Positions 25,746 through 40,025 are shown, counted from the stretch's first letter. The stretch is 40,299 bases of DNA from a bacterium (GCA_043802525.1 JAZDKY010000134.1:1-40299), one strand, 5' to 3'. The notes: generated by a model not told the origin, from the letters alone. Made by a program: numbers and translations.

Positions 25746-26615
25746 ATGGAGCAGTGCTGCATATGCGGGAAGGATCTGCCGGGCAAGTATTCGCAGCAGA
25801 ACTGTTGCGAGAAGCCCGAATGTAAAAAGCTCTTCTGCGACCTGCACTGGAACCGGAGCAACCGGCTCTGCCGCGAGCACGGGTACCGGGAATTGGCGGA
25901 ACACGGAGGCAAAGATATGACGACGCCCGACCAGGAACCTGCGGCTTCGAAGATCGATCCGAAGCGCGCCAAGAAACTCATGGATGCCACGGTGTCCTTC
26001 GTCAAGAAACTCGGCGCGGGCGCGGCGGATCTTCTCGGCAAGCTCAAGAAGGACAAGTCCCCGCAGGCCATGCTGGCGACGATGGAGCAGTCCATCGACG
26101 CGAACCAGAAACGGCGCGAGGACGTTTCCGGTCGCGTGGAGCGACTTCACAACGAGATTGTCGAGAAGAAGAAAGCCTATGCGACGGCGGCACCGGCCCG
26201 GAAACGTATTCTCGAGGCTGAACTTCGGAGCAAGCTCTCGGAATACAAGGCTTCCGAGCGCGAGCTGAGCGTCCTGCTGGAAAACGAGCGCGTACTTTCG
26301 CAGGTCAAAGGCCGGCTCTACGAGGTCGTGTCGTACGGCATGGCCGGCGTGACGGAAGCACAAATAGACGACGTGATCGACGAGATCGAGGAGGCGGTCG
26401 CCGAAGCCGAAGGCCGCGCGGACGCCTCGCGCGACCTTGAGAAGGCCGGGCGCCGTCGGGAGCGTGAGTCCGACAAGGACGACTTTTTGTCGCAACTCGG
26501 CGAGTTCGGTGGGGACGCGGAACCGTCCGGATTGGACAAGGAGCTTGCCGGTTTTGACGAGCCGGAGCCTGCCGCCGAAAAACCGAAACGGAACAAGGAA
26601 GAACCCGACATCTGA
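25746..26615 (+). CDS. Cys-rich zinc-binding N-terminus fused to a Snf7/ESCRT-III-like helical core with an acidic tail.
   Basis: The segment EKKKAYATAAPARKRILEAELRSKLSEYKASERELSVLLENERVLSQVKGRLYEVVSYGMAGVTEAQIDDVIDEIEE follows the Snf7 pattern (basic hairpin, then acidic C-terminus with an IDDV.D.IEE-like block), by analogy to yeast Snf7/CHMP4. Pattern-based, not searched. Confidence 0.5.
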   Translation: MEQCCICGKDLPGKYSQQNCCEKPECKKLFCDLHWNRSNRLCREHGYRELAEHGGKDMTTPDQEPAASKIDPKRAKKLMDATVSFVKKLGAGAADLLGKLKKDKSPQAMLATMEQSIDANQKRREDVSGRVERLHNEIVEKKKAYATAAPARKRILEAELRSKLSEYKASERELSVLLENERVLSQVKGRLYEVVSYGMAGVTEAQIDDVIDEIEEAVAEAEGRADASRDLEKAGRRRERESDKDDFLSQLGEFGGDAEPSGLDKELAGFDEPEPAAEKPKRNKEEPDI

Positions 26616-26631
26616 TTGCCAGGAGGTCACC

Positions 26632-27702: not shown

Positions 27703-30609
27703 ATGGACAAGTCCTTGGGCAGCCGGGATACCACGCCGCCGGATGATCCATCCGGCAGCGATGGCATCAAGAGCGTCGGCGACTGGCAGACGCTGCGGGC
27801 GATGGCCGGGCGGAAGCGGTTCAAGGCCGGGGAGATGATCCTTGGCCGGTACAAGGTCACCGGCGAACTGGGCCAGGGCGGGATGGGTGTCGTCTACCGC
27901 TGCTTCGACGAGGTCGGCGGGATCGACGTGGCGCTCAAGGCGCTGCCGCCCGAACTCTCGCACGATTCTTCGGAAATGGCGGAGGTACGCGAGAACTTCC
28001 AGCTCGTTTCGCGGCTGGTCCACACCAACATCGCCCAGATCCGCACCCTCGATAAGGACCCCGCCACGGGCGACTACTACCTCGTCATGGAGTGCGTGGA
28101 TGGGATCAACCTGCGCGACTACCGGAAGAAGCACGGCGGGAAACTGACGCTCGAACAGGTGATGCGGATCGCCCCGCAGGTGGCCGGGGCGCTCGACTAT
28201 GCGCACGGCCAGAAAATCATCCACAGGGACATCAAGCCCGCCAACGTGATGATCCGTGCCGACGGCACGGTGAAAGTGCTGGACTTCGGACTGGCCGCGC
28301 AGCTTCACACGTCCATGTCGCGGGTCAGCAAGGCCCATTACGGGACCAGCGGCACGGGCCCGTACATGGCGCCGGAGCAGTGGGAGGGCGACTACCAGGA
28401 CGCGGCGACGGATCAGTACGCGTTCGGTGCCTTGGTCTATGAGCTGCTGGCAGGGCGTTGTCCTTTCGAAAGCCACGACTCGGGCGTCCTGCGGCATGCC
28501 GTCCTGCACGGGAAGGCCAAACCGATCGACGGCGTGCCCGCACGGGAAATGGATGCGATCTTGCGCGCGCTGGCGAAGACGCGGGAGGATCGGTTTGCGG
28601 ATTGCGCGGAGTTTGTGGAGGCGCTGGGCGGGGGGAAGATTGAACCACGGAGGACACGGAGTAACGCGGAGGGGAAGAGGAGTGGGGTTCGTGGTTTGCG
28701 GTTGGGGGTTGGGGTGGTTCTGCTCGTGGCCCTTGGCTACGGGTCCCTTGTGTCCCTCAAGTCGCTTTCCGCGCGCCGCGCGGAGGAGCGCACCGCACAG
28801 GACGCCGCGGCGAAGCAGAACGACGCGTCAAAACAGCAGATTGCCCAACTCCAACAGGCCGTCGAGCAGGCACTGACGTCTGGCAATTTGAAGGCCGCGG
28901 GAGAGAGCCTGTCTGACTTGGAGGAACTGGGCGTGCAGATACCGGCCGTGCGTGATCTGAGAGCCCGATACGAAGCAGCCGCGGGCGCACAAGAAGTGAG
29001 GAAGCGGCAGGCAGAAGCGTCGCTGGAATACGAGGCGGCACAGAAACTCGAGCCTGGGCAGGGGTTGGAGAAGAAGCTGAAGGAACTGGAACTGGTCTGG
29101 CGAGAGGCGGAACAGGCGAAGAAGGACGAGGCGTGGGGGCCGGCGCTGACGTCGTACGACCATCTCCTGGGGAAGTGCCGGGAGCTTGGGGAATGGGATG
29201 CGGCGCGCAAAGGCGCGAAGGCGCAGGGCCGGAAGGCGGAAGGCGCAAGACAGTCGGCGTCGGGCAGGAACGCGGAGCGGGATGCCTTGGCGCTATGGAA
29301 TGGCGCGGCCTCGGCGGCCTCGGCCGCAGCGACGGCCTATGAGGCGGGTGATTTTGCGGGCGCTTCCAAGGGTTGGAAGGATGCTGAAGTGAAGTTCCAA
29401 TCTTCGGAGCAGAGGGCTGTCGCGGTGCAGGCATACGGGAAGGCGAAGGCGGACTACGATGCCGCGGCGTCGCGGGCGGACCGGGAACTGCTGGGGCAGT
29501 ACGCCGCAGGCAAGTGGAAGGAAGCCCAGCAGCAGGCCAGGACGGCGGAGCAGTCCGGGGACACGCCGGACGAGGGGCGCCGGGCGTACGAGGCCGCGCT
29601 GGCGGCCTTGGACGCGGCGGTCAAGGAGGCGGAGGAGAAGTCGATCCCGATCCTGAAGGTCACGGCGAAGGCCGACGGAGCAGATGTCAAAGCTACGGTC
29701 AGCGACGGCAAGAGCACGTGGATGACGCCGGTGGAGCTGAAACTGGCGAAGAACCAGTCCTATACGTTTCAAGTAACCTATGCGGGCGGCGGCAAGCGCT
29801 GGAAAGCGGTGCGCGACACCCGAACATCCGATTGGGTGGGCGTGAAGCAGTGGGCGGTGGCGCTGGAGGCGTCGCGAGGGCCCGAGCCGGGCCGGCCGTG
29901 GACGGTGCCGGAGCTGGGGATGGAGTTCGTGCCGGTGGAGGCGGGCAGCTTCCAGATGGGATCGGAAGACGGCCATAACGACGAGAAACCCGTACACGGC
30001 GTGAGGATCACGAAGCCGTTCTGGATGGGGAAATACGAGGTGACGCAGGAGGAGTACCGGAAGATCAGCGGTCAGGCGCCTTCCTACTTCAAGGGCGACC
30101 GGCTGCCTGTTGAGACGGTCAACTGGAACGAAGCCGTTGCGTTCTGCCGCAAACTGACCGAACAGGAGCAGGCGGCGGGGCGGTTGCCGGAAGGGTATGA
30201 ATACCGGTTGCCGACGGAGGCGGAATGGGAGTACGCGGCGCGCGGCGGGACCTTGAGTCGAGGGACGGGGTATGCGGGCGGCGACGATATTGACCGGGTG
30301 GCGTGGTATACGTCGAATAGCGGGAGTACGACGCATGAGGCGGGCACGAAAGCAGCCAATGAGTTGGGCCTCTACGACATGAGCGGGAACGTGTGGGAAT
30401 GGTGCCTGGACGCATATCAGGACAGCTATACGGGCGCTCCGGCGGATGGTTCGGAGCGTACTGGTTCCGGGGCCGTTTCGCGGGTTCTCCGTGGCGGGTC
30501 GTGGCCCGACGATGCGACGTACTGTCGCGTCGCCTACCGCCGCAGGAACGACCCGACGGACTCCTACTACTGCATTGGCTTTCGTGTTGTGTTGGGGGCG
30601 GTCCGTTGA
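27703..30609 (+). CDS. Transmembrane Ser/Thr protein kinase with a C-terminal extracytoplasmic FGE-sulfatase/C-type-lectin-fold domain carrying the DGR variable region. DGR target 1.
   Basis: LGQGGMGVVYRC, HRDIKPANVMI and DFGLAA. Transmembrane segment GVGVVLLVALGYGSLVSL. FGE domain (RLPTEAEWEYAARGG...GNVWEWCLDAY...RVLRGGSW...GFRVVL). VR1 lies at the 3' end. Confidence 0.9.
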   Translation: MDKSLGSRDTTPPDDPSGSDGIKSVGDWQTLRAMAGRKRFKAGEMILGRYKVTGELGQGGMGVVYRCFDEVGGIDVALKALPPELSHDSSEMAEVRENFQLVSRLVHTNIAQIRTLDKDPATGDYYLVMECVDGINLRDYRKKHGGKLTLEQVMRIAPQVAGALDYAHGQKIIHRDIKPANVMIRADGTVKVLDFGLAAQLHTSMSRVSKAHYGTSGTGPYMAPEQWEGDYQDAATDQYAFGALVYELLAGRCPFESHDSGVLRHAVLHGKAKPIDGVPAREMDAILRALAKTREDRFADCAEFVEALGGGKIEPRRTRSNAEGKRSGVRGLRLGVGVVLLVALGYGSLVSLKSLSARRAEERTAQDAAAKQNDASKQQIAQLQQAVEQALTSGNLKAAGESLSDLEELGVQIPAVRDLRARYEAAAGAQEVRKRQAEASLEYEAAQKLEPGQGLEKKLKELELVWREAEQAKKDEAWGPALTSYDHLLGKCRELGEWDAARKGAKAQGRKAEGARQSASGRNAERDALALWNGAASAASAAATAYEAGDFAGASKGWKDAEVKFQSSEQRAVAVQAYGKAKADYDAAASRADRELLGQYAAGKWKEAQQQARTAEQSGDTPDEGRRAYEAALAALDAAVKEAEEKSIPILKVTAKADGADVKATVSDGKSTWMTPVELKLAKNQSYTFQVTYAGGGKRWKAVRDTRTSDWVGVKQWAVALEASRGPEPGRPWTVPELGMEFVPVEAGSFQMGSEDGHNDEKPVHGVRITKPFWMGKYEVTQEEYRKISGQAPSYFKGDRLPVETVNWNEAVAFCRKLTEQEQAAGRLPEGYEYRLPTEAEWEYAARGGTLSRGTGYAGGDDIDRVAWYTSNSGSTTHEAGTKAANELGLYDMSGNVWEWCLDAYQDSYTGAPADGSERTGSGAVSRVLRGGSWPDDATYCRVAYRRRNDPTDSYYCIGFRVVLGAVR
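30470..30609 (+). repeat. DGR variable repeat VR1 (3' end of kinase-FGE gene 1).
   Basis: 140-nt alignment to TR1 shows 12 mismatches, all at TR adenines (examples: ggAAcAac to ggCCcGac; ccAaccgcAAc to ccTaccgcCGc; AAcAAcAAcAtt to TAcTAcTGcAtt). Confidence 0.9.
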
Positions 30610-30664
30610 GGAATGGGTATTGTACTGAGCTTCTGGGCTTCTGTGTTCTGAACTACTGTTTGAA

Positions 30665-30690
30665 AGCGCGCGGAGCGCGCTCGAATTTTT
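30665..30690 (+). terminator. GC hairpin (agcgcgc-gga-gcgcgct) followed by a T5 run, 56 nt downstream of VR1. It is a DGR target-recognition-type hairpin and/or an intrinsic terminator.
   Basis: Read from the sequence. The homologous position after VR2 has ccccgc-gaa-gcgggg. Confidence 0.5.
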
Positions 30691-30737
30691 CGGCTGTGTC
30701 GAAAGGGGGACCATGACACACGGGGGACGAAACGATA

Positions 30738-30877
30738 GGGCCGTTTCGCGGGTTCTCCGTGGCGGGTCGTGGAACAACGATGCGACGAACTGTCGCGTCG
30801 CCAACCGCAACAGGAACGACCCGACGAACTCCAACAACAACATTGGCTTTCGTGTTGTGTTGGGGGCGGTCCGTTGA
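30738..30877 (+). repeat. DGR template repeat TR1 (orphan). It is AAC-rich and translates in target frame as [42 protein letters not shown].
   Basis: Identical to VR1 except at 12 adenine positions. It is intergenic. The upstream gggggaccatgaca resembles the avd 3' end (gggggccgggacatgaca) found before TR2. Confidence 0.9.
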
Positions 30878-31045
30878 AGAATCGGACAGCCAGATACCGT
30901 GCGCTTCCCGCGAGAGCGGGTCGCCCGGTCCGTGCAAACCCATTCCAGTTTTGTCCTCCTGATCCCGCCGGCGAGCGGGGCGAAGACGCGGCGCGGGGCT
31001 GGGGCTGGTACCCTGAGGATCTCGAAGGGGAAAGCCCCGGCCCCG
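30878..31045 (+). ncRNA. Conserved structured RNA element 3' of TR1 (DGR spacer-like region). It includes the shared motif ccagatac and the conserved block aagacgcggcgcggggcYggggcYggtaccctgagg..tcgaRggggaaRgccccggc.
   Basis: The same roughly 60-nt block recurs downstream of TR2 (37607..37665). A C/U difference in the 5' strand preserves pairing (G-C versus G.U) with gccccggcccc. Confidence 0.55.
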
Positions 31046-31253
31046 CATGCTCCGCAGCGGGCACGGAATGGCTGCGCAGCACGACGGGCTATGACCGATC
31101 CGCTGGACATCGCCAAGAAGAATATTCCGCGGGCGGGCGACCGCAAGGGGGCATGACAACCCGGCCAGATTCGCGATATGATTGCATCTGAATGGTTCTT
31201 TATATGACGGTGGCGATGTTGATAAGTCTTGCTGGCAAGATGTTCCTTTCCCT

Positions 31254-31870
31254 ATGAAACCGCCCGACAACAGCCTCGGTGGTCAGTCGACAAATCCCGG
31301 CGCGGATCTGCCGGACGGCATCCATTCGATCGGCGACGTCCTGACGCAGCGCCAGCGGAAGCGGTTCAGGGCCGGGGACGTGCTGGCGGGGCGCTACAAG
31401 ATTCTCGGCGAACTCGGGCAGGGTGGGATGGGGTTGGTGTTCCGTTGCCTTGACGAGGTCGGCGGGATCGAGGTCGCCGTGAAGATGCTTCCTCCGGAAG
31501 TCTCGCGCGACACGGGCGAGATGGAGGAGGTCCGTGAGAATTTCCAACTGGTCGCGAAGCTCGCCCACCCGAACATCGCCACGGTCAGGACCTTGGAACG
31601 GGATCCTGCCACGGGCGAATACCTCCTCGTCATGGACAGCGCCGAGGGCGCCAGCCTGCGGAAGTGGCGAAAAGAAGGCGCAGGGGGCCGTCGCACGCTC
31701 GAAGAGATTCTGCCCGTCCTTGAACACGTGGCGTCGGCGCTGGATTACGCGCACGGGCGCAAGGTCGTCCACCGGGATATCAAGCCCTCCAATATCTCAT
31801 GTGGCGCGGGGCACGTGGTTGGAGGTTAGGGCTTGGTGTGGCCGTGATCCTTGCGCTGGGCTGGTGGGGA
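31254..31870 (+). pseudogene. Truncated paralogue of the kinase-FGE gene. It keeps the kinase N-terminal half (near-identical to 33066..33610) and is then internally deleted to a fragment of the transmembrane region.
   Basis: MKPPDNSLGGQSTNPGADLPDGIHSIGDV...HRDIKPSNI, then SCGAGHVVGG*. The downstream ggcttggtgtggccgtgatccttgcgctgggctggtgggg matches the transmembrane-coding segment at about 34061. Confidence 0.75.
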
Positions 31871-31953
31871 AACGTATAAGCACCTCAGCTTCTGTGGTTC
31901 TTTGCCGTTTTCCTCCAACACGACAACCTGATGATTTCCCCTTTAAGCGCGCG

Positions 31954-32211
31954 TCATCGGTACACCTCGCGTCGGTTGCCGATCTTCAAGACCAGCACGA
32001 TCAATTGTCTGTCCCGAACGGTGTAGATGATGCGCCAGTCGCCAACGCGGACACGATACTGGTCATCTTGCCCGCCCAGTTTTTCCACGCCGGGCGGGCG
32101 CGGGTTATCGGCAAGGCTTTCCAGCCTTCGGAGAATCCGGGAATGAACGTCCGGCTGAAGCAGGTCCAACTGCTTGCGGGCCGGTCGCGTGATCGTGACA
32201 GTGTACTTCAA
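31954..32211 (-). CDS. Type II toxin, RelE/ParE family.
   Basis: ...NPRPPGVEKLGG..QYRVRVGDWRIIYTVRDRQLIVLVLKIGNRREVYR is the classic RelE/ParE C-terminus. 4-bp overlap with the upstream antitoxin. The start is probably TTG. Confidence 0.75.
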   Translation of the reverse strand: MKYTVTITRPARKQLDLLQPDVHSRILRRLESLADNPRPPGVEKLGGQDDQYRVRVGDWRIIYTVRDRQLIVLVLKIGNRREVYR

Positions 32212-32474
32212 GCACGGGCCTTGCGAGTGCGCTTATAATCCTCAAGGGTCATCGCGCTTTTTGGATTCCGCTCGTAGTCGCGCAGGGCCTTCAAGGCGTC
32301 GCGGGCATCTGTTGCGTCCTCGAATCGGCGCAGTAGCTCCAAGTCTTTGGCGGAAACCAGCGCCGCGACCGGCGTCCCACGTCGTTCCACTACAATGCGT
32401 TCGCCGCCGTAGGACACTTTATTGATGGCGTCGGCGAAATGGATACGCGCTTCGGCTATGCTTAATATAGTCAT
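32208..32474 (-). CDS. Type II antitoxin, Phd/YefM family.
   Basis: MTILSIAEARIHFADAINKVSYGGERIVVERRGTPVAALVSAKDLELL fits the Phd/YefM fold signature. It is the only opposite-strand gene pair in a long +strand run. Confidence 0.75.
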   Translation of the reverse strand: MTILSIAEARIHFADAINKVSYGGERIVVERRGTPVAALVSAKDLELLRRFEDATDARDALKALRDYERNPKSAMTLEDYKRTRKARA

Positions 32475-32559
32475 GTCCTTCCCCCTCTGTTCATGTACAT
32501 TCCGTACTAAATGTACAGAGTACGGGTGCCGATGTCAAAGGACGGAATCAACGGGCTCG

Positions 32560-32950
32560 CGAAGGAATACCTCATTCCGTTGTGGGGCCAGCTCTTCACC
32601 TTGGCCTTTTTCAGGATGCGTCCACGCCATCTCCGAACGACTGAATTCGGGGCGCAGACGGGTTCCGACTCCCGGCGGTCAACATGGAATGTATACCCTT
32701 GGAATTCTGGGCAAGGCACGTGGCTTCCTCAGAAAGACGCCGGGAACTACAGTTCGAGTTGGGGGGGAATATGTGGGAGCGTTGCGAGGACTACTATGGC
32801 GGCCAGAGTGGCTCCCGTGTTCTTCGCGGCGGTTCTTGGTTCGACGGTGCTTCTGTGACTTTGCTATTGTCGAGCCGTGTCGACGACCTCCCCGGGAGTC
32901 AAAGCGGCGATATCGGTTTCCGCGTGGTGTTGGCTCGTGCTTCGCCTTGA
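32560..32950 (+). pseudogene. Decayed FGE-domain 3' fragment with a degenerate former VR (..[24 protein letters not shown]...IGFRVVLA). It is the remnant of a third DGR target.
   Basis: Recognisable FGE C-terminal motifs in a broken frame. It differs from both TRs at non-adenine positions as well, so it is no longer a homing substrate. Confidence 0.55.
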
Positions 32951-33065
32951 GGCTTCCACCTTCGCAAATGCTTGGGTGGCACGTCGCCGGGCGGGGTCTC
33001 TCGCGCCAAGTTGGATGTGAATATGGTTTGTTCTGCTATCCTTATTTGATTACGACTCTCCCATC

Positions 33066-35864
33066 ATGACACCGCCCGATAACAGCCTCGGTGGTCAGTC
33101 GACGAATCCCGGCGCGGACCTGCCGGACGGCATCCACTCCATCGGCGACGTCCTGACGCAGCGCCAGCGCAAGCGGTTCAGGGCCGGGGACGTGCTGGCG
33201 GGGCGCTACAAGATTCTCGGCGAACTCGGACAGGGCGGGATGGGGTTGGTGTTCCGCTGCCTTGACGAGGTCGGCGGGATCGAGGTCGCCGTGAAGATGC
33301 TTCCTCCGGAAGTCTCGCGAGACACGGGCGAGATGGAGGAGGTCCGTGAGAATTTCCAACTGGTCGCGAAGCTCGCCCACCCGAGCATCGCCACGGTCAG
33401 GACCTTGGAACGGGACCCTGCCACGGGCGAATACCTCCTCGTCATGGACAGCGCCGAGGGCGTCAGCCTGCGGAAGTGGCGAAAAGAAGGCGCAGGGGGC
33501 CGTCGCACGCTCGCAGAGATTCTGCCCGTCCTTGAACATGTGGCGTCGGCGCTGGATTACGCGCACGGGCGCAAAGTCGTCCACCGTGACATCAAGCCCT
33601 CCAATATCATGGTGTCGCCCGACGGCACGGTCAACGTGTTGGACTTCGGCTTGGCGGCGCAGATCCACACATCGTTTTCCCGCGTCTCGCAAACGAAATA
33701 TGGGACGAGCGGGACGGGCCCGTACATGGCGCCGGAACAGTGGCGCGGGGAATACCAGGACGCGAAGACCGATCAGTATGCGCTGGGGGTGATGACGTAC
33801 GAATTGCTGGCGGGGCGGCTGCCGTTCGAGAGTCATGATGCGTCGGTCTTGAAACAGGCTGTGTTGGACCATGAGCCGACGCCCATCGCGGGGTTGGACC
33901 CTGCTGCGATGGCGGTGCTCCGCCGCGCGTTGGCGAAGAAGCGTGAAGAAAGGTTTGCAAGCTGTGCGGAGTTTGTGGAGGCGCTGGGGGGTGGGAAGAT
34001 TTCACCGCAGAGGACGCCGAGGAACGCAGAGGGAAGGAGGAGTAGATTCGGGGGTTTGTGGTTGGGGGTTGGTGTGGCCGTGATCCTCGTCCTGGGCTGG
34101 TGGGGATGGATGGTATGGCGCCAGGGAAGTGCGCCTGAGGAACAGTCTGCGCGGGTGTCTGCGCAGACGAAGCCGAATACGGCCGCTGAACAGCCAGATG
34201 GGCAAGCGAGCCAAGCGCAGCCGATAACCCTCGAAGATCTGGATAAGTTAGACTTCAGCCCGATAGTCACCCTACCGACATCAGTACGCAATGGCGCCGC
34301 GTACATTGCAACCGACCCGGCGGGGGCGGCGGTTGCGATAGGAGCGGCAGGGAAGACTGCGCCGGCTGAGTTCCTCAATCTTCCTGCGGGCGTGTGTACG
34401 GCGCGGGTATCGCTTTCGGGCTACTACGACACGAGTGTCCTACTCCTCGTCACCGGGGACCGGTTCACCAAAACGAACGTCGTCCTGCGCCGCCACAGCG
34501 GGAAAGTCCGGCTGTCCAGTACGCCAACCGAGGCGGAAATATGGCGGGACGGGCAGAGGCTGGGCATGACGCCCGAGATTCTCGGACCCTTCCCAGCCGA
34601 GTCGATCGTGTTCGAGTTGAAGAAGCCGGGTTACCGCCCGGCGACCGTCACCGTGGAGGTCCGGAAGGACGAAGCCACCGACCGTACCGCGAGCCTCGAA
34701 AAGGCGTCCGGCTGGCTTCGCGTTGTGGCGCAAGGAAGGCCTGCTGGTGAAGCGGGCGAATTGGAGATCGACGGCCGGAGCGTGGGCGTCGTCAAGCTCC
34801 CCTACGTCGCGGGCCCGTTCGATCCCGCGAAGGTCAAGGTGCGCTTCGTCGGCGCAGGCGGCGCGTCGGCGGAGGCCGCAGCCTCCGTGGAGGACACCAG
34901 AACCAACGTGGTCACGCTGGTCTTCGAGGCGCAGCCGAGGGATGGCGAAGACTGGACCGTCAAGAACTTGGGCATGCTGGTGAAGTGGATCCCGGCGGGC
35001 ACGTTCATGATGGGCAGCACGCCGGAGGAACGGGCGTGGGCCGCCGGGTCGGAGGGCAAGGGGCAGAAGGAATGGTTTGCCGGTGAAGGCGATCAGCCGC
35101 GGAGCACGAAGGTGGATCCGGGTTTCTGGTTGGGACAGACCGAGGTCACGCGGGGTCAGTGGAAACAGTTCATGGCAGACAATCCCTCGTTTCGAACCGA
35201 TGCGGAGAAAAGCGGCCAGGCATGGTGCCTTGACATCAAAGGCGACAAGCAATGGAAGCTCATGAAGGGTAAGAGCTGGCGGGATCCGAACTTCGAGCAG
35301 GACGATACGCACCCGGTTGTGTGCATATCGTGGAACGACGCGACCGCCTTCTGCGCTTGGCTGACTCGTAAGGAACGGGACGGCGGCCGCCTCCCGGAGA
35401 GCCTGGTTTACCGCCTTCCATCAGAGGCGGAATGGGAGTATGCCTGCAGAGCGCAAAAGGAGCAGACGCGGTTCTGGTGGGGAGACGCTGTGATGGACGG
35501 AGAAGGGCGAGTGAACGTGGGGGGGACGGAAAAGATGCCGAATGGAACCACTTGGAGCGTGAGCTTCTCGTTTGACGATGGCTGGCCCTACACGGCCCCG
35601 GTGGACAGCTATGGGACCAGAGGGCGCAATGGCTTTGGTTTGGCGGATATGCTGGGCAACGTCTGGGAGTGGTGCCTCGACGGCTGGTCGGAGCAGGGCG
35701 CGCAGGTCCAGGTATACAAGGCCGATGCTTCGCGGCGCGTTGTGCGGGGCGGGTCGTTCAACTTTCAACCCGGTGGCGTCCGTTGCGCGTATCGCGCCAG
35801 GACCGATCCTTCGCTTCCGGACGGCGGCGATGGCTTTCGGGTTGGTCTGGGTGTTTCCCGCTGA
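33066..35864 (+). CDS. Transmembrane Ser/Thr protein kinase with a C-terminal extracytoplasmic FGE-sulfatase/C-type-lectin-fold domain carrying VR2. DGR target 2.
   Basis: LGQGGMGLVFRC, HRDIKPSNIMV and DFGLAA. Transmembrane segment LWLGVGVAVILVLGWWGW. FGE domain (RLPSEAEWEYACRA...GNVWEWCLDGW...RVVRGGSF...GFRVGL). Confidence 0.9.
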   Translation: MTPPDNSLGGQSTNPGADLPDGIHSIGDVLTQRQRKRFRAGDVLAGRYKILGELGQGGMGLVFRCLDEVGGIEVAVKMLPPEVSRDTGEMEEVRENFQLVAKLAHPSIATVRTLERDPATGEYLLVMDSAEGVSLRKWRKEGAGGRRTLAEILPVLEHVASALDYAHGRKVVHRDIKPSNIMVSPDGTVNVLDFGLAAQIHTSFSRVSQTKYGTSGTGPYMAPEQWRGEYQDAKTDQYALGVMTYELLAGRLPFESHDASVLKQAVLDHEPTPIAGLDPAAMAVLRRALAKKREERFASCAEFVEALGGGKISPQRTPRNAEGRRSRFGGLWLGVGVAVILVLGWWGWMVWRQGSAPEEQSARVSAQTKPNTAAEQPDGQASQAQPITLEDLDKLDFSPIVTLPTSVRNGAAYIATDPAGAAVAIGAAGKTAPAEFLNLPAGVCTARVSLSGYYDTSVLLLVTGDRFTKTNVVLRRHSGKVRLSSTPTEAEIWRDGQRLGMTPEILGPFPAESIVFELKKPGYRPATVTVEVRKDEATDRTASLEKASGWLRVVAQGRPAGEAGELEIDGRSVGVVKLPYVAGPFDPAKVKVRFVGAGGASAEAAASVEDTRTNVVTLVFEAQPRDGEDWTVKNLGMLVKWIPAGTFMMGSTPEERAWAAGSEGKGQKEWFAGEGDQPRSTKVDPGFWLGQTEVTRGQWKQFMADNPSFRTDAEKSGQAWCLDIKGDKQWKLMKGKSWRDPNFEQDDTHPVVCISWNDATAFCAWLTRKERDGGRLPESLVYRLPSEAEWEYACRAQKEQTRFWWGDAVMDGEGRVNVGGTEKMPNGTTWSVSFSFDDGWPYTAPVDSYGTRGRNGFGLADMLGNVWEWCLDGWSEQGAQVQVYKADASRRVVRGGSFNFQPGGVRCAYRARTDPSLPDGGDGFRVGLGVSR

Positions 35865-35867
35865 GGC
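35729..35867 (+). repeat. DGR variable repeat VR2.
   Basis: 139-nt alignment to TR2 shows 16 mismatches, all at TR adenines (examples: cAAtcaa to cTTtcaa; tAAcgtAcgAtg to tGGcgtCcgTtg; AtcgAAtccgA to TtcgCTtccgG; cAgcAAcAAtgg to cGgcGGcGAtgg). Confidence 0.9.
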
Positions 35868-35926: not shown

Positions 35927-35941
35927 ACCCCGCGAAGCGGG
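35927..35941 (+). promoter_or_regulatory. GC hairpin with a GAA triloop (ccccgc-gaa-gcgggg), 60 nt downstream of VR2 and just upstream of the RT start. DGR target-recognition-type hairpin.
   Basis: Read from the sequence. The segment between VR and hairpin (ctgagcttctggg.ttctg.gtt.ctga) is conserved with the VR1-downstream region. Confidence 0.5.
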
Positions 35942-35952
35942 GCCGAAAATGT

Positions 35953-37014
35953 ATGGCCGTAACCTTCAAGCATCTGTACGCGCAGGTCTGGGACTTCGAA
36001 AACCTGTGGCTGGCTTATCAGAAGGCCCGCCGGGGCAAACGGTATGACGAGCCTGTGGCGAGGTTCGACAGCAACGCGGAGGAGAATATTCTCCAGCTAC
36101 AGTCGGAACTGCGCGACCGCTGCTGGACACCCGGGCCGTACCGCCACTTCTACGTTTGGGAGCCCAAGAAGCGAAGGATATCCGCCGCGCCGTTCCGCGA
36201 CCGCGTTGTGCACCACGCCCTAGTGAACGTGCTGGAGCCGATCTATGAAGCGCGATTCAGCGGTTCTTCGTATGCCTGCAGGAAAGGGAAGGGCACACTG
36301 GCGGCGATGCTCAAGGCGCATTGGGGCGTCCGCAACTGCGCGTGGTTCCTCAAGGGCGATATCGTGAAATTCTTTCCCTCTGTGGATCACGAGGTGCTCC
36401 TGAGCGTTCTCCAGAGGAAGATCGCGGACGTCGATGTCCTGGCGATGATTCGCGTCATCCTCGATTCCGGGCGGGGTGTCTTTGATGATGAGCGGCCGCC
36501 GATGTGGTTCGCGGGCGACGACCTGCTTGCGCCCGCGCTCCGGCCCAAAGGGCTTCCGATCGGCAACCTGACCAGCCAGTTCTTTGCAAACGTCCTTCTC
36601 AACGAACTCGACCAGTTTGTGCACACCCGACTTTCGCCGCGCCTCTATGTCCGCTACAGCGACGACTTCGTGCTTTTCGATCACGACCGCGGCAAGGTGG
36701 AGCCCGTGCGCGGTCCGATCGAGGAGTGCCTTGAGTCGCTGCGCCTGAGGATGCATCCGGGCAAGTCCCATCTTCGGCCTTCCCGGCAGGGGCTCCGGTT
36801 CCTGGGTTTCCGGCTTCTTCCGTCGACGCGAAGGGTGGCTCGCGAAAACCTGACGCGTTTCCGGCGACGTATGCGGACGTGCGGGCATCTGCGGAGGGGA
36901 AATCGAATAACCGTCGCGCGCGTGGGCGCATCCGTGCGTGGCTGGTTGAGTCACGTGGACCATGCGAATGCGTCCGCCGTCACAAGGAGGTTGTTGTCCG
37001 ATGTCCGGTTCTGA
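35953..37014 (+). CDS. Diversity-generating retroelement reverse transcriptase.
   Basis: The hallmark DGR RT motif IGNLTSQFFANVLLNELD is present, as is RYSDDFVLF (catalytic YxDD) and the N-terminal FENLWLAYQKARRGKRYD. The gene sits between a VR and a TR. The in-frame upstream extension to 35875 is unlikely. Confidence 0.9.
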   Translation: MAVTFKHLYAQVWDFENLWLAYQKARRGKRYDEPVARFDSNAEENILQLQSELRDRCWTPGPYRHFYVWEPKKRRISAAPFRDRVVHHALVNVLEPIYEARFSGSSYACRKGKGTLAAMLKAHWGVRNCAWFLKGDIVKFFPSVDHEVLLSVLQRKIADVDVLAMIRVILDSGRGVFDDERPPMWFAGDDLLAPALRPKGLPIGNLTSQFFANVLLNELDQFVHTRLSPRLYVRYSDDFVLFDHDRGKVEPVRGPIEECLESLRLRMHPGKSHLRPSRQGLRFLGFRLLPSTRRVARENLTRFRRRMRTCGHLRRGNRITVARVGASVRGWLSHVDHANASAVTRRLLSDVRF

Positions 37015-37354
37015 TCGCGCGGAATCCCCGCTATTCGTCAAGACAAGGGACTTCATGGGCTGGCTGTTCCAGCACACGGCCAAGTTCCCCAAGGTCTACC
37101 GGCATACGCTGACAAACCGATTGGAAGAAAGTATGCTGGATTTTCATCGCTGTCTTGGTGTCGCCGCGTTGACGGGCGATGAGGTAGCCCTCGCACGTGC
37201 GGACGTCGAGCTGTGGCAACTGCGCCAGCTTCTCCGCTTGGCAAACGACATGGGATTCTTCCCCGCTCGCCTGATGGAGTACAGCGCCCCACGGCTCGCA
37301 GAGCTCGGGAGCCTGCTTGGCGGGTGGCGGAGGAAGACGGGGGCCGGGACATGA
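37001..37354 (+). CDS. avd: Avd-like accessory variability determinant (small basic four-helix-bundle protein). It overlaps the RT 3' end.
   Basis: AGGAGG RBS 10 nt upstream. About 117 aa. ...AKFPKVYRHTLTNRLEESMLD...LAELGSLLGGWRRK resembles Bordetella phage Avd / TIGR02436-type proteins. It lies immediately upstream of TR2. Confidence 0.7.
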   Translation: MSGSDRAESPLFVKTRDFMGWLFQHTAKFPKVYRHTLTNRLEESMLDFHRCLGVAALTGDEVALARADVELWQLRQLLRLANDMGFFPARLMEYSAPRLAELGSLLGGWRRKTGAGT

Positions 37355-37361
37355 CAGCGGC

Positions 37362-37500
37362 GTTCGCGGCGCGTTGTGCGGGGCGGGTCGTTCAACAATC
37401 AACCCGGTAACGTACGATGCGCGTATCGCGACAGGAACGATCCATCGAATCCGAACAGCAACAATGGCTTTCGGGTTGGTCTGGGTGTTTCCCGCTGAGG
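37362..37500 (+). repeat. DGR template repeat TR2. It is AAC-rich and translates in target frame as RVVRGGSFNNQPGNVRCAYRDRNDPSNPNSNNGFRVGLGVSR.
   Basis: Identical to VR2 except at 16 adenines. It starts 8 nt after the avd stop. Confidence 0.9.
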
Positions 37501-37665
37501 CGTCGAACTGCCAGATACGGCAAGCCCGCGGCTGCGCCGCGATCCTGCCGTCCGAGCACCTCCATGCCCGTCCCGGCATCCGGATCGCGCCCCTTTGGGC
37601 GCGACAAAGACGCGGCGCGGGGCCGGGGCCGGTACCCTGAGGTTGTCGAGGGGGAAGGCCCCGGC
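37501..37665 (+). ncRNA. Conserved structured RNA element 3' of TR2 (DGR spacer-like region). It is homologous to 30878..31045.
   Basis: Shared ccagatac and the block aagacgcggcgcggggccggggccggtaccctgaggttgtcgagggggaaggccccggc. Stem gccggggcc/ggccccggc. Confidence 0.55.
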
Positions 37666-37718
37666 GTCGCATTCCGAGGCGGGGTTGTGCAGCATGTACG
37701 GCGAGTAAGGAGGTTCTC

Positions 37719-38870
37719 ATGAGTTTTCTCCTCGAAAAGAAACTGGAGCACGAGAGCCTGTGCGAGTCTGACATTCGGGCGGGCCGCGTCGGGAATGCCG
37801 TTTTCCACGCGGCGAAGGCCGCCGAATTCGCGTACGCCCTGGCCGCGCAGACGGCCGGCAACATCGGCCAGCGCTATATTGAGGATGCGGAGGGGTGGTT
37901 GGAGATCGCGGAGAGGCTGCGGACCAGGCCCCCTGTTTCCCGGAAGACGGAGGACGGAGGACGGAAGACGGAGGGAAAGGGGCAGAGGACGAAGGATGAC
38001 GAGCAGGGGCCGGATGATGACTGGCTGGTGACCGAAAAGCCCAATGTCACGTTCGACATGATCGCGGGGATGGCAGAGGCGAAGCAGTCGATCATGGAGA
38101 TGGTGGTGCTGCCGCTCAAATCGCCCGAGAAGGCGAAGGCACTGGGACTGCGGGCCGGCGGCGGCGTGCTGCTATATGGCCCTCCCGGCAATGGCAAGAC
38201 CCTTCTCGGCAAGGCGGTGGCCAGCCAGCTCGACGCGCCGTTCTACTACGCGTCGGGCGCCCAGATACGGTCCAAGTGGCACGGAGAATCCGAGCAGCGG
38301 CTGCGCAAGCTCATCCAGTCCGCGAAGCAGCAATCCGTTGCCGTTCTTTTCCTGGACGAAGTCGACGGACTGCTCCCGAAACGCGGCGGAAATTCCGTCG
38401 TCGATAACCGCTTGGTGACGCAGTTCCTTGCGGAAATCGGCGGGTTCGAGGAATCCGACAATGTGCTCCTGGTCCTTGGGGCGACCAACAAGCCTTGGGA
38501 GATTGACGAAGCCGTTTTCCGGACCGGCCGATTCGACGAAAAGATCTATGTGGGCCTTCCTGACGATCCGGCCCGGCTTGGCATCCTGCACATGCACCTG
38601 GACAAGGTCCCGCTCGGGCCGGACTTCGATTTCGAGAAATGGGCGAAACGGATCGAGGGCTATACGGGAAGCGACATTGTCGGCGTCGTCAACGATGCCA
38701 AGAGATCCGCGCTCAGCAGGAGCATCCGTGAAGAGGGCGATCCGCAACTGACGAATGCCGATCTGGAGGCTGCCTTCAAGACGATACCGTCGTCCGTCAC
38801 ACCGCAACTGCTTCAGCGGTACGAGCAATTCAAGCAGGCACGGTTTGGCCAGCCAAAGGACGTGGCCTGA
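37719..38870 (+). CDS. Vps4-like (meiotic-clade) AAA+ ATPase. It has an N-terminal MIT-like helical domain, a low-complexity linker, an AAA domain and a Vps4-type C-terminal helix.
   Basis: AAGGAGG RBS. Walker A GPPGNGKT, Walker B LFLDEVD. SKWHGESEQRLRKL and LVLGATNKPWEIDEAVFRTGRFDEKIYVGLPD parallel Vps4 SKWLGESEKLVKNL and [30 protein letters not shown]. C-terminal TIPSSVTPQLLQRYEQFKQARFGQ parallels Vps4 [24 protein letters not shown]. Confidence 0.75.
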   Translation: MSFLLEKKLEHESLCESDIRAGRVGNAVFHAAKAAEFAYALAAQTAGNIGQRYIEDAEGWLEIAERLRTRPPVSRKTEDGGRKTEGKGQRTKDDEQGPDDDWLVTEKPNVTFDMIAGMAEAKQSIMEMVVLPLKSPEKAKALGLRAGGGVLLYGPPGNGKTLLGKAVASQLDAPFYYASGAQIRSKWHGESEQRLRKLIQSAKQQSVAVLFLDEVDGLLPKRGGNSVVDNRLVTQFLAEIGGFEESDNVLLVLGATNKPWEIDEAVFRTGRFDEKIYVGLPDDPARLGILHMHLDKVPLGPDFDFEKWAKRIEGYTGSDIVGVVNDAKRSALSRSIREEGDPQLTNADLEAAFKTIPSSVTPQLLQRYEQFKQARFGQPKDVA

Positions 38871-39939: not shown

Positions 39940-40025
39940 GGGTTTGCCGGTTGACTTTCAATCGAGGAAACCACGAAACACCCAAGATGGCACAGCCGCA
40001 ACCGAAGAAGAAGGAAACCACTGAA

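What the first reader, a model, noticed from the sequence alone, without database searches (positions are those of the whole stretch)
27703..35864. DGR diversifies the extracytoplasmic ligand-binding domain of transmembrane Ser/Thr receptor kinases
Both targets have a cytoplasmic Hanks kinase at the N-terminus, a single transmembrane helix, a coiled-coil/PEGA-like ectodomain and a C-terminal FGE-sulfatase (C-type-lectin-fold) domain whose last roughly 40 codons are the VR. The hypervariable binding surface is therefore wired directly to a phospho-signalling output, giving an evolvable receptor repertoire. Nearby are an FHA-domain protein (13864..15405), two further transmembrane STKs and SPFH/ESCRT-III-like membrane proteins, all plausible downstream partners.
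Basis: partly seen in the sequence, partly recalled or inferred. Interest (0 to 1): 0.8.

Follow-up and report, generated by a model that had tools for sequence, protein, structure and literature searches.

The report
DGR-diversified periplasmic receptor kinases
Two membrane-spanning Ser/Thr kinases carry an outward-facing lectin-fold sensor tip that a retroelement rewrites at random; kinase targets of this kind are already published, but here they sit inside a conserved membrane-remodelling gene cluster that I did not find described.

Summary
Genes 27703-30609 and 33066-35864 each encode an intact Hanks kinase, one hydrophobic helix, an ectodomain and a C-terminal FGE-sulfatase (C-type-lectin-fold) domain. 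The last ~46 codons of each are a DGR variable region.

- **VR/TR signature:** VR1/TR1 differ at 13 positions and VR2/TR2 at 16. All 29 are template adenines (P about 1e-10 and 3e-14).
- **DGR parts:** one reverse transcriptase and one bAvd serve two different template repeats. Each TR is followed by the same structured RNA element.
- **Activity:** not shown for this contig. In two related elements, contigs from different samples differ only in the receptor VRs.
- **Family:** kinase-TM-FGE receptors are numerous in Verrucomicrobiota, Lentisphaeria and Kiritimatiellia MAGs. Three of nine sampled clusters are hypervariable at the tip.
- **Context:** the receptors recur beside an HTH_17, zinc-ribbon/Band-7, FHA, Snf7-like and AAA ATPase cluster. 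In this window and in an independent locus, the receptor/DGR block lies between Snf7 and the AAA gene.

DGR-targeted kinases are published, so the core claim is not new. The genomic context may be. Signalling to the neighbouring genes is inferred from synteny only.

The parts
27703..30609 (+). Target 1: Hanks kinase (about 45-310), TM helix (about 331-352), all-alpha ectodomain (349-646), beta-sandwich (650-721), non-catalytic FGE/CLec domain (733-966)
   Evidence: Pfam; motifs and hydropathy; AlphaFold2 model with mean pLDDT 83.8
30470..30614 (+). VR1: last 46 codons of target 1 plus 5 nt. It has 16 variable codons, 10 of them AAC in the TR, giving about 1e15 possible proteins
30665..30681 (+). 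GC hairpin AGCGCGC-GGA-GCGCGCT followed by a T-run, downstream of VR1. Probable DGR target-recognition hairpin and/or terminator
   Evidence: a comparable GC hairpin follows VR2 and the L087 and L090 VRs
30738..30882 (+). TR1: template repeat for VR1, with no RT or Avd gene of its own
30883..31050 (+). Structured RNA element downstream of TR1. Probable 3' part of the DGR RNA
   Evidence: The 74-nt core is 85% identical to the copy after TR2 (D9); alignment; RNAalifold gives 52 pairs, 19 with compensatory change
31246..31870 (+). Pseudogene: a 96%-identical copy of the first about 180 codons of target 2, ending after HRDIKPSN, joined to a TM-segment remnant, with in-frame stops
31954..32474 (-). 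ParE toxin (31954-32211) and Phd/YefM antitoxin (32208-32474) inserted between the receptor genes
   Evidence: Pfam (3.4e-13 and 1.1e-12)
32684..32950 (+). Orphan FGE-domain C-terminal fragment (RVLRGGSW...IGFRVVL) that matches neither TR closely
   Evidence: FGE-sulfatase 5.2e-06
33066..35864 (+). Target 2: Hanks kinase (about 40-310), helix 318-353 containing the TM segment, disordered linker, three beta-sandwich domains (410-620; two score as PEGA), FGE/CLec domain (630-930)
   Evidence: Pfam; AlphaFold2 model with mean pLDDT 75.6; kinase matches PknA/PknB with TM-score (normalised to target) 0.83-0.85
35729..35867 (+). VR2: last 45 codons of target 2. It has 17 variable codons, giving about 1e13 possible proteins
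35928..35942 (+). GC hairpin CCCCGC-GAA-GCGGGG downstream of VR2
35953..37014 (+). DGR reverse transcriptase (353 aa from the ATG used in the NCBI call) with IGNLTSQ and YSDD motifs
   Evidence: RVT_1 2.5e-18; P0121; motifs
37001..37354 (+). bAvd accessory protein (117 aa; the longer ORF starts at 36962)
   Evidence: PF22296 5.3e-13 and 3.7e-13; start placed by analogy with L087
37363..37501 (+). TR2: template repeat for VR2
37502..37675 (+). Structured RNA element downstream of TR2, homologous to the one after TR1
11800..12156 (+). HTH_17 DNA-binding protein, first gene of the conserved cluster
   Evidence: Pfam 9.3e-16; the same gene precedes the Band-7 gene in L001, L003, L087 and L096
12203..13831 (+). 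Double-zinc-ribbon + SPFH/Band-7 protein
   Evidence: Pfam; 55-59% identical orthologues in L001, L003, L087 and L096
13864..15405 (+). Zinc-ribbon + FHA (phosphothreonine-binding) protein
   Evidence: Pfam FHA 1.3e-09; orthologues next to the Band-7 gene in L001, L003, L094 and L096
15431..17803 (+). Three conserved proteins of unknown function: 15431-16369, about 16486-17097 and 17120-17803
   Evidence: 52-61% identical, same order, in L003
18416..21565 (+). Kinase with zinc ribbons and one hydrophobic segment near residue 701; no FGE domain
23117..25678 (+). Kinase, TM segment, PEGA and TPR receptor; no FGE domain and not a DGR target
25746..26615 (+). Conserved unknown protein that precedes Snf7 in relatives
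   Evidence: 49-52% identical in L001, L087 and L096
26629..27261 (+). Snf7-like (ESCRT-III/PspA superfamily) protein
   Evidence: Pfam Snf7 5.8e-07, 29.8 bits against a 27.3 cut-off; family of about 321 proteins at E <= 1e-10
37719..38870 (+). Single-ring classic-clade AAA ATPase (CDC48-D2/CdvC-like), partner of Snf7 in relatives
   Evidence: 67-74% identical and adjacent to Snf7 or the DGR block in L087 and L096

Best explanation
A single DGR diversifies the periplasmic sensor tip of two paralogous single-pass receptor Ser/Thr kinases.

Shown or strongly supported:
- The DGR consists of an RT, bAvd and two separate TR-RNA units.
- Each TR transcript, together with its conserved downstream structured element, is presumably copied by the shared RT with random substitution at adenines. 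The cDNA replaces the last ~46 codons of its own target.
- This can rewrite 16 or 17 codons in a non-catalytic FGE-sulfatase/C-type-lectin-fold domain.
- That domain lies outside the cytoplasmic membrane. The PknB-like kinase lies inside.

Inferred:
- Ligand binding in the periplasm activates the kinase.
- The signal is read by the FHA protein and the other products of the conserved cluster in which the receptors sit: HTH_17, zinc-ribbon/Band-7, Snf7-like ESCRT-III protein and AAA ATPase.
- The outcome is an envelope or membrane-remodelling response to unpredictable periplasmic ligands, such as phage parts or injected toxins.

The stated confidence is for the whole chain. For the DGR-plus-receptor core alone it is about 0.9.
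For: DGR core:
- 29 of 29 VR/TR mismatches are at TR adenines.
- The RT is intact, with IGNLTSQ and YSDD motifs, and bAvd is present.
- AAY-rich TR codons avoid stop codons.
- GC hairpins follow both VRs.
- The TR-downstream element is conserved after both TRs and in three relatives, with compensatory pairs.

Topology:
- Each receptor has one hydrophobic segment with a positive-inside bias.
- AlphaFold2 gives kinase, helix, ectodomain and CLec in that order.
- 75 of 86 homologues that carry both a kinase and an FGE motif have exactly one hydrophobic segment between the two.
- The kinase catalytic residues are invariant across 30 homologues.
- The FGE catalytic cysteine pair is absent.

Activity in relatives:
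- L087, L088 and L089 are otherwise identical contigs from three samples, apart from a stretch of the FGE domains just upstream of the VRs in L087. Among-sample variable VR positions fall at TR adenines in 22 of 22 and 27 of 28 cases.
- L096 and L097 differ at 21 positions in the receptor gene, all inside the VR.
- Three of nine protein clusters are hypervariable only in the last 60 residues.

Linkage to the cluster:
- Band-7 and FHA genes lie next to kinase-FGE arrays in L001, L003, L087, L094 and L096.
- Snf7 and AAA genes lie next to kinase-FGE genes in L087, the P0037 contig and L096.
- The receptor/DGR block lies between Snf7 and AAA both here and in L096, although the two RTs are only 39% identical and the Avd/RT order is reversed.
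- None of 80 other DGR loci of the wider RT clade has these neighbours.
Against: - No population data exist for this contig. P0001 and P0007 are single-member clusters, so current activity here is not shown.
- Topology rests on hydropathy and AlphaFold2 only. No dedicated predictor or experiment was used, and the T1 TM region has low pLDDT.
- TR1 has no adjacent RT, and trans use of the RT is inferred.
- Nothing shows phosphorylation, ligand binding, or any physical link to the FHA, Band-7, Snf7 or AAA proteins.
- Some kinase-FGE loci lack those neighbours within 10 kb (L095; L090).
- The Snf7 Pfam score is only just above threshold.
- PADLOC gave only generic kinase and AAA hits.
Confidence: 0.55

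Rival explanations
1. The receptors are DGR-diversified as described, but they sense nutrients, particles or other cells and signal independently of their neighbours. On this view the adjacency to the Band-7, FHA, Snf7 and AAA genes reflects a shared variable genomic island, not a common pathway.
For: - Surveys find that most cellular DGR targets are membrane-anchored binders linked to adhesion or carbohydrate binding (bioRxiv 10.1101/2020.04.01.020958).
- Toxin-antitoxin pairs, IS elements and pseudogenes surround these arrays, as in a variable island.
- L095 and L090 have kinase-FGE genes without those neighbours within 10 kb.
Against: - The same neighbours recur with 50-75% identical orthologues in six loci.
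- The receptor/DGR block sits between Snf7 and AAA in two loci whose RTs are only 39% identical.
- None of 80 control DGR loci shows these neighbours.
- All genes are on one strand with short gaps.
Confidence: 0.2
2. Only the TR2/VR2 cassette next to the RT is live. TR1/VR1 would be an orphaned copy whose mismatches record past activity, left behind by the rearrangements that also produced the pseudogene and the FGE fragment.
For: - TR1 has no RT or Avd next to it and lies about 5 kb from the RT.
- The interval between the targets is visibly decayed.
- The sequence upstream of TR1 does not resemble the avd 3' end that precedes TR2.
Against: - TR1 keeps the full downstream structured element, 85% identical in its core to the TR2 copy and with base pairs maintained.
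- VR1 keeps the downstream GC hairpin and the same VR-versus-TR end difference seen in L087.
- All 13 mismatches are at adenines and no other drift is visible between VR1 and TR1.
- DGRs with two TRs have been reported (PMC6642488).
Confidence: 0.15
3. The hydrophobic segment is not a membrane span and the CLec domain is cytoplasmic. It would then act as an autoinhibitory or substrate-selecting module of a soluble kinase, as proposed for most cyanobacterial kinase variable proteins.
For: Vallota-Eastman et al. predicted most cyanobacterial DGR kinase targets to be cytosolic and proposed these roles (PMC7517822). The T1 segment has low AlphaFold2 confidence.
Against: - The 19-residue hydropathy maxima are 2.16 and 1.92, with basic flanks on the kinase side.
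- The segment is conserved in position in 75 of 86 homologues.
- PEGA and beta-sandwich domains follow it, and the literature read treats PEGA as a peptidoglycan-associating domain typically placed after a TM segment.
- The nearest solved kinases are the receptor kinases PknA, PknB and StkP.
Confidence: 0.05
4. The whole DGR is a fossil. The RT no longer works and the VR/TR differences are historical, so the receptors are now a fixed pair.
For: There is no within-population variation data for this contig. Six of nine related receptor clusters show no tip variation.
Against: - The RT and Avd reading frames are intact with catalytic motifs.
- Neither VR/TR pair has a single non-adenine mismatch over 139-145 nt. 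Such mismatches would accumulate after inactivation.
- The closest sampled relatives are demonstrably variable between samples.
Confidence: 0.05

Closest known systems
Cyanobacterial DGR variable proteins with an N-terminal Ser/Thr kinase and C-terminal CLec domain (Vallota-Eastman et al. 2020, PMC7517822); type b12 of Wu et al. 2018 (PMC5758913)
   Same: Hanks-type kinase at the N-terminus. FGE-sulfatase/CLec domain at the C-terminus carrying the VR. Adenine-specific TR/VR mismatches. Paralogue arrays with both diversified and static members.
   Different: Those proteins were mostly predicted to be cytosolic. Here, and in 75 of 86 homologues with both motifs, a single TM helix places the CLec domain outside. 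The lineage is PVC rather than cyanobacteria. The gene neighbourhood is Band-7/FHA/Snf7/AAA, not the MoxR-vWA or STAND systems.
DGR-diversified 'antigen sensor' conflict systems of multicellular bacteria (Dore et al. 2024, PMC10907252; Kaur et al. 2020, PMC7159879)
   Same: A CLec sensor diversified by a DGR and fused or linked to signalling or effector domains, including Pkinase. Both periplasmic and cytoplasmic sensors were predicted. Several targets per locus.
   Different: Those systems are built around MoxR-vWA ternary modules or STAND NTPases with caspase, TIR or CHAT effectors. None of these is in this window. The partners here are SPFH, FHA, ESCRT-III-like and classic AAA proteins.
Bordetella phage BPP-1 Mtd and Treponema denticola TvpA, the prototype DGR targets
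   Same: A C-terminal VR in a CLec/FGE-like fold, AAY-rich TR codons, and Avd plus RT. TvpA (2y3c) matches the VR-bearing C-terminus at E = 5e-06.
   Different: Mtd is a phage tail-fibre tip and TvpA a surface lipoprotein. Neither has a signalling domain. Here the gene order is target-RT-Avd-TR, and there are two TRs.
PknB/PknA/StkP-type bacterial receptor kinases (PASTA kinases)
   Same: Cytoplasmic Hanks kinase, single TM helix and extracytoplasmic sensor. Best solved matches are at E = 4e-38 by sequence and TM-score (normalised to target) 0.83-0.85 by fold. FHA proteins are well-known readers of such kinases (my own knowledge).
   Different: The sensor is a hypervariable CLec domain on a helical or PEGA stalk instead of germline-fixed PASTA repeats.
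Bacterial PspA/Snf7 systems with AAA+ ATPase and Band-7 partners (mSystems 2024, PMC11237479)
   Same: A Snf7-like protein next to a classic AAA ATPase. A Band-7 protein in the neighbourhood. A proposed role in membrane remodelling or repair.
   Different: That survey's text has no occurrence of 'FHA', and none of the passages retrieved for Snf7 or Band-7 links them to Ser/Thr kinases or DGRs. Here receptor kinases, some DGR-diversified, are inserted within the Snf7-AAA unit.
DGRs with more than one TR, for example Stenotrophomonas sp. SKA14 (Yan et al. 2019, PMC6642488)
   Same: One RT is associated with two TRs and several VRs.
   Different: Here each TR has its own single cognate target with a different ectodomain scaffold. 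The second TR unit is a complete TR-plus-RNA-element copy 5 kb from the RT.

Membership tests
Diversity-generating retroelement (DGR) | A TR/VR repeat pair whose mismatches are (nearly) all at TR adenines | tested here: met
   13 of 13 and 16 of 16 mismatches at TR adenines; P = 1e-10 and 3e-14
Diversity-generating retroelement (DGR) | Reverse transcriptase of the DGR type ([I/L/V]GxxxSQ motif, YxDD catalytic motif) | tested here: met
   RVT_1 2.5e-18; IGNLTSQ at residue 203 and YSDD at 235. That the motif is diagnostic of DGR RTs is from my own knowledge.
Diversity-generating retroelement (DGR) | Accessory protein (Avd) | tested here: met
   PF22296 bAvd at 5.3e-13 and 3.7e-13, above the gathering score
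Diversity-generating retroelement (DGR) | VR at the C-terminus of a CLec/FGE-fold target, with a downstream hairpin | tested here: met
   FGE-sulfatase 2e-49 to 2e-51 running to the stop codon; GC hairpins at 30665-30681 and 35928-35942
Diversity-generating retroelement (DGR) | Ongoing mutagenic retrohoming (VR varies within a population) | not testable with these tools
   This contig has only one sequence per target. The feature is met in relatives L087-L089 and L096/L097.
Hanks-type Ser/Thr protein kinase | Catalytic motifs: G-loop, VAIK lysine, HRD, DFG, APE | tested here: met
   All are present in T1 and T2 and invariant in 30-sequence alignments. The fold matches PknA/PknB.
Single-pass receptor kinase (N-in, C-out) | One TM helix between the kinase and the sensor, with no signal peptide | tested here: met
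   One hydrophobic segment per protein and none at the N-terminus. A helix at 318-353 in the T2 model. 75 of 86 homologues are alike. No dedicated TM predictor was available.
Single-pass receptor kinase (N-in, C-out) | Sensor domain experimentally outside the cytoplasmic membrane | not testable with these tools
   Orientation is inferred from the positive-inside bias and from the kinase's need for cytoplasmic ATP.
Formylglycine-generating enzyme (the annotation given at NCBI: SUMF1/EgtB/PvdO family enzyme) | Catalytic cysteine pair in the substrate groove | tested here: not met
   In the alignment to human SUMF1, the stretch holding the two cysteines is replaced in T2 by FNFQPG--GV, which is part of the VR. 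The domain is a binding scaffold, not an enzyme.
PEGA domain | Pfam PF08308 match above the gathering score | tested here: met
   T2 scores 3.8e-14 with two stretches. T1 has no Pfam hit but a predicted beta-sandwich at 650-721, so T1 is inconclusive.
ESCRT-III/Snf7 with Vps4-type AAA ATPase | Snf7-family protein adjacent to a Vps4/CdvC AAA ATPase | tested here: inconclusive
   Snf7 scores 29.8 bits against a 27.3 cut-off. The AAA protein matches the CdvC model over nearly its full length, but at 203 bits against a 650 cut-off, and resembles CDC48 D2 equally. Adjacency is seen in L087 and the P0037 contig. A MIT domain was not tested.
MoxR-vWA ternary or STAND NTPase conflict systems with DGR | MoxR AAA plus vWA, or a STAND NTPase, linked to the CLec target | tested here: not met
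   No vWA, MoxR, NACHT or STAND hits in any window protein scanned

The most novel reading that the evidence does not exclude
In PVC bacteria (Verrucomicrobiota, Kiritimatiellia, Lentisphaeria) there may be a conserved multi-gene envelope system made of HTH_17, zinc-ribbon/Band-7, FHA, several unknown proteins, a Snf7-like ESCRT-III protein and a CdvC/CDC48-like AAA ATPase. Its input would be an array of single-pass receptor kinases, and DGRs have been built into the operon to hypermutate the periplasmic sensor tip. That would couple an anticipatory, antibody-like receptor repertoire to ESCRT-III-type membrane remodelling through phosphothreonine signalling. Possible purposes are membrane repair or defence against phage or toxin entry, or receptor-triggered membrane invagination.
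Probability: 0.35. Interest if true: 0.8.

Novelty: new variant of a known kind. Interest (0 to 1): 0.5.

Why it matters
DGRs are the only known prokaryotic system that generates anticipatory diversity in a binding site. What the cell does after a variant binds something is largely unknown for chromosomal DGRs.

Here the variable site is fused, across the membrane, to a kinase, so binding has an obvious read-out. The candidate downstream genes lie in the same conserved cluster: an FHA reader, an SPFH scaffold, an ESCRT-III-like protein and an AAA ATPase. This makes the question 'what is a cellular DGR for?' testable with kinase-dead mutants, phosphoproteomics and membrane phenotypes. It also suggests an unexpected regulatory input for bacterial ESCRT-III-like machinery.

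On the practical side, NCBI annotates both target genes here, and several homologues, as 'SUMF1/EgtB/PvdO family nonheme iron enzyme'. That name hides both the kinase and the DGR target nature.

Tried and rejected
- **Genome-contig scan with the RT.** Only three distant loci were returned (Kuenenia, Bryobacteraceae, Patescibacteria). They gave no information on the organism or the close clade.
- **Metagenome-contig scan with the RT alignment.** I used it as a control set. About 45 of 80 loci have an FGE target, only L013 has a fused kinase, and none has the cluster genes.
- **Rfam at gathering threshold.** No family matched, so the TR-downstream element is not a curated family.
- **PADLOC and NCBIfam on the cluster proteins.** Only generic kinase (PD-T4-6) and AAA (IetA, CDC48, CdvC) hits appeared, all below the equivalog cut-offs. 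I did not file the cluster under any known defence system.
- **Foldseek of the whole T2 model against the PDB.** Kinase hits filled the list, so it said nothing about the CLec domain. I relied on the sequence search instead.
- **Alignment with a truncated ectodomain query (A7).** It misaligned to the kinase domains and was discarded in favour of full-length alignments (A8, A10).
- **Context look-ups without usable DNA.** P0003 is not on record. P0009, P0037 and P0309 returned gene tables but no DNA.
- **Similarity between the sequence upstream of TR1 and the avd 3' end.** It was not convincing.
- **The L094 array.** The VR-like tails are mosaic, but there is no TR within 10 kb and the codon-position pattern (17/15/9) is not decisive. 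I left it as suggestive only.
- **The FGE fragment at 32684-32950.** I considered it as a third VR and rejected that, because it matches neither TR.

Full report

| Protein | Coordinates | Length | Pkinase | FGE-sulfatase | Other |
|---|---|---|---|---|---|
| T1 | 27703-30609 | 968 aa | 2.7e-43 | 2.4e-49, residues 741-963 | none |
| T2 | 33066-35864 | 932 aa | 2.4e-41 | 2e-51, residues 641-926 | two PEGA stretches, 3.8e-14 |

Both kinases keep the G-loop, the VA[LV]K lysine, HRDIKPxN, DFG and APE. These positions are invariant in alignments with 29 homologues each. The nearest solved structures are the receptor kinases PknA, PknB and StkP, by sequence and by fold (TM-score normalised to target 0.83-0.85).

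**The DGR.** Direct-repeat search finds two separate repeat pairs.
- VR1 30470-30614 and TR1 30738-30882 differ at 13 positions.
- VR2 35729-35867 and TR2 37363-37501 differ at 16 positions.
- All 29 differences are at template adenines, and there is no other mismatch inside the repeats.
- If mismatch positions were random, the probabilities would be 1e-10 and 3e-14.
- The two TRs are clearly different sequences, so each serves only its own target.

TR adenines sit mostly in AAC/AAT codons at positions 1 and 2. There are 16 variable codons in T1 (aa 935-958) and 17 in T2 (aa 899-922). These codons cannot mutate to stop codons, and they allow roughly 1e15 and 1e13 protein variants.

One reverse transcriptase follows T2 directly. 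It spans 35953-37014 and scores RVT_1 2.5e-18, with IGNLTSQ and YSDD motifs. It overlaps a bAvd gene at 37001-37354 (PF22296, 4e-13). The gene order is T2, RT, Avd, TR2.

TR1 lies just downstream of T1, 5 kb from the RT, with no RT or Avd of its own. Each TR is followed by about 170 nt of related sequence:
- The 74-nt core is 85% identical between the two copies.
- The element also follows the TRs of three related elements.
- A consensus fold of the five sequences has 52 pairs, 19 of them with compensatory changes.
- With five sequences this is only indicative, and Rfam has no matching family.

Both VRs are followed by a short GC hairpin, at 30665-30681 and 35928-35942, after a similar CTGAGCTTCTGGG stretch. 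Comparable hairpins follow the VRs of relatives. I read TR1 as a complete second DGR RNA unit that uses the RT in trans. This is inferred, not shown. DGRs with two TRs have been reported (PMC6642488).

**Topology and structure.**
- Each protein has one hydrophobic segment, T1 about 331-352 and T2 about 329-350, and none at the N-terminus. More K/R residues lie on the kinase side than on the far side.
- The AlphaFold2 model of T2 (mean pLDDT 75.6) gives a kinase, a long helix at 318-353, a disordered linker, three beta-sandwich domains (410-620) and the FGE/CLec domain (630-930).
- The T1 model (mean pLDDT 83.8) gives a kinase, a poorly modelled TM region, a confident all-alpha region (349-646), one beta-sandwich (650-721) and the FGE domain (733-966).
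- The two receptors therefore present their variable tips on different stalks.
- The FGE domain aligns to human SUMF1 (E = 4e-21) and, at its C-terminus, to the DGR target TvpA (E = 5e-06).
- The stretch that holds the FGE catalytic cysteine pair is replaced by VR sequence. The domain is a binding scaffold, not the enzyme the NCBI name suggests.
- The orientation is inferred from these features. No dedicated predictor was available.

**Between the targets.** Three features lie in this interval.
- Region 31246-31796 is a 96%-identical copy of the first about 180 codons of T2. It stops after HRDIKPSN, is joined to a remnant of the TM segment, and has in-frame stops.
- A ParE/Phd pair lies on the other strand.
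- An 88-codon FGE C-terminal fragment at 32684-32950 matches neither TR.

Together these look like the wreck of a third receptor gene.

**Relatives and activity.** The window is a whole 40,299-bp MAG contig labelled only 'bacterium'. Its two targets are single-member clusters, so activity cannot be read here. Two related elements give direct evidence.

- **L087-L089.** The closest RT clade is 57-69% identical. One member at 59% lies on a contig assembled independently from three samples. The layout is two kinase-FGE genes, RT, bAvd, TR, an unknown gene, Snf7 and AAA. The second target's ectodomain is 43% identical to that of T1.
  - The three contigs are otherwise identical.
  - Among-sample variable VR positions fall at TR adenines in 22 of 22 and 27 of 28 cases.
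  - Further differences just upstream of the VRs look like mixing between the two paralogues during assembly.
- **L090.** A 68%-identical RT targets a kinase-LRR-FGE protein.
- **L096/L097.** In a more distant element, two samples differ at 21 positions in the receptor gene, all inside the VR.

The architecture itself is common.
- Most of the best 120 homologues carry Pkinase plus FGE-sulfatase. Named sources include Verrucomicrobiota, Lentisphaeria, Victivallales and Kiritimatiellia MAGs.
- Of the 86 homologues with both a kinase and an FGE motif, 75 have exactly one hydrophobic segment between the two.
- Of nine 90%-identity clusters with several full-length members, three vary almost only in the last 60 residues (17 of 26, 11 of 12 and 16 of 16 variable positions). 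Six do not vary there.

The family therefore has both diversified and static members. Arrays without a nearby RT exist (L003, L094, L095).

**Context.** Everything from 11800 to 38870 is on the plus strand. The gene order is:
- HTH_17
- double-zinc-ribbon/Band-7
- zinc-ribbon/FHA
- three unknown genes
- kinase with zinc ribbons
- an unknown gene
- kinase-PEGA-TPR
- an unknown gene
- Snf7-like
- the receptor/DGR block
- a classic-clade AAA ATPase

Orthologues recur next to kinase-FGE genes as follows.

| Neighbours | Loci | Identity to window |
|---|---|---|
| Band-7 and FHA | L001, L003, L087, L096 | Band-7 55-59%; FHA 32-33% in L001, L003, L096 |
| Band-7 and FHA | L094 | Band-7 28% |
| Snf7 and AAA | L087, L096 | 57-74% |
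| Snf7 and AAA | P0037 contig | no DNA held; Pfam gene table only |

Starting instead from the Snf7-like protein, both contexts examined contain receptor kinases. One of them, L096, repeats this window's arrangement of Snf7, kinase-FGE, DGR and AAA. That is notable because its RT is only 39% identical and its Avd/RT order is reversed. In L087 the Snf7 gene ends where the AAA gene starts, and the DGR block sits upstream of both. As a control, none of the 80 DGR loci from the wider RT clade has Band-7, FHA, Snf7 or AAA homologues, and only one has a kinase target. The samples are small and were chosen by homology, so this is a strong lead rather than a statistic.

**Mechanism.**
- *Shown or strongly supported:* a DGR with one RT/Avd and two TR units rewrites the distal tip of a non-catalytic CLec domain in two single-pass receptor kinases.
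- *Inferred:* the tip is periplasmic. Ligand binding activates the kinase, as in PknB-type receptors. Phosphothreonine is read by the FHA protein. The response involves the Band-7 scaffold and the Snf7-like/AAA pair, which in other systems remodel or repair membranes (PMC11237479).
- *Weak hint:* the HTH_17 protein has a sub-threshold match to the Rv2175c wHTH family. From my own knowledge, Rv2175c is a substrate of a mycobacterial Ser/Thr kinase.
- *Open:* what the ligands are. Periplasmic access suggests phage components, injected toxins or envelope fragments.

**Comparison with the literature.** Kinase domains on DGR targets are already listed or described:
- Wu et al. 2018, type b12.
- Vallota-Eastman et al. 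2020 describe them in detail for cyanobacteria. They found them mostly cytosolic with some TM cases.
- They appear among the 'antigen sensors' of Dore et al. 2024.
- They recur as 'Pkn1/PknD' products in a 2024 MAG survey.
- PEGA domains on targets were noted by Roux et al..

What I did not find in the searched library is the receptor topology as a family-wide feature in PVC bacteria, or the embedding in a Band-7/FHA/Snf7/AAA cluster. The library is incomplete, so this absence is weak evidence.

**Verdict.** I class the finding as a new variant of a known kind. Interest is moderate at 0.5. It would be higher if the link to the ESCRT-III-like module proves functional.

Noticed in passing
window 26629-27261 and 37719-38870; L087 12661-14417; L096 10001-16716: In L087 the Snf7-like gene ends where the AAA ATPase gene starts. 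In this window and in L096, the kinase-FGE/DGR block of about 10 kb or 5 kb is inserted between the two genes on the same strand. The two DGRs have RTs only 39% identical and opposite Avd/RT order.
   Followed up: partly
window 30883-31050 and 37502-37675; L087 11550-11790; L090 6149-6390; L092 3510-3750: A conserved, apparently structured RNA element of about 170 nt follows every TR in this RT clade. Conserved blocks include GCCAGATAC, GGTCCGAGCA and AAGACGCGGCGCGGGGC, and 19 of 52 predicted pairs show compensatory changes. Rfam has no match.
   Followed up: partly
window 31246-31870, 31954-32474 (minus strand), 32684-32950: Three features lie between the two live targets: a truncated 96%-identical copy of the 5' end of target 2, a ParE/Phd toxin-antitoxin pair, and an orphan FGE C-terminal fragment. 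Toxin-antitoxin pairs or IS elements also flank related arrays (HipBA in L001, ParE/Phd in L094 and the P0309 locus, IS200 in L090).
   Followed up: partly
window 40007-40177: A tandem array of about eight 19-nt units (CCCTCCCAAGGCGGGCAGG) lies near the contig end. There are no spacers, so it is not CRISPR-like. Its function is unknown.
   Followed up: no
window 27703-30609 and 33066-35864 (P0007, P0001): NCBI names both targets 'SUMF1/EgtB/PvdO family nonheme iron enzyme'. The kinase domain and the loss of the FGE catalytic cysteines are not reflected in that name. The same name is given to several homologues.
   Followed up: yes
L094 10001-19362 (Verrucomicrobiota MAG GCA_050948605.1): An array of four kinase-FGE genes sits next to Band-7 and FHA genes. 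The last about 170 nt of three of them are 81-84% identical, with clustered variable blocks resembling VRs. No RT or TR lies within 10 kb, so a remote DGR is possible.
   Followed up: partly
window 11800-12156: The HTH_17 protein that opens the conserved cluster has a sub-threshold match (24.4 bits against a 27.1 cut-off) to the Rv2175c wHTH family. From my own knowledge, the founding member of that family is a substrate of a mycobacterial Ser/Thr kinase.
   Followed up: no
L096 14136-15482: The RT gene is called as 448 aa in the source, and that ORF runs through the TR (15218-15347). The same TR also matches a second, remote VR 13 kb upstream (408-533) in another kinase-FGE gene.
   Followed up: partly
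window 145-3369 and 3570-7052: A 1074-aa protein with Calx-beta, Reelin subrepeat-B and BACON domains is followed by a 1160-aa ORF with no Pfam match. Both lie upstream of the cluster and appear unrelated to it.
   Followed up: no
L087 6241-6421 and 9369-9671: In one of the three samples, the two paralogous FGE domains differ from the other samples upstream of the VR, and the two VRs of that sample are identical to each other. This is probably assembly mixing or gene conversion between the paralogues.
   Followed up: no
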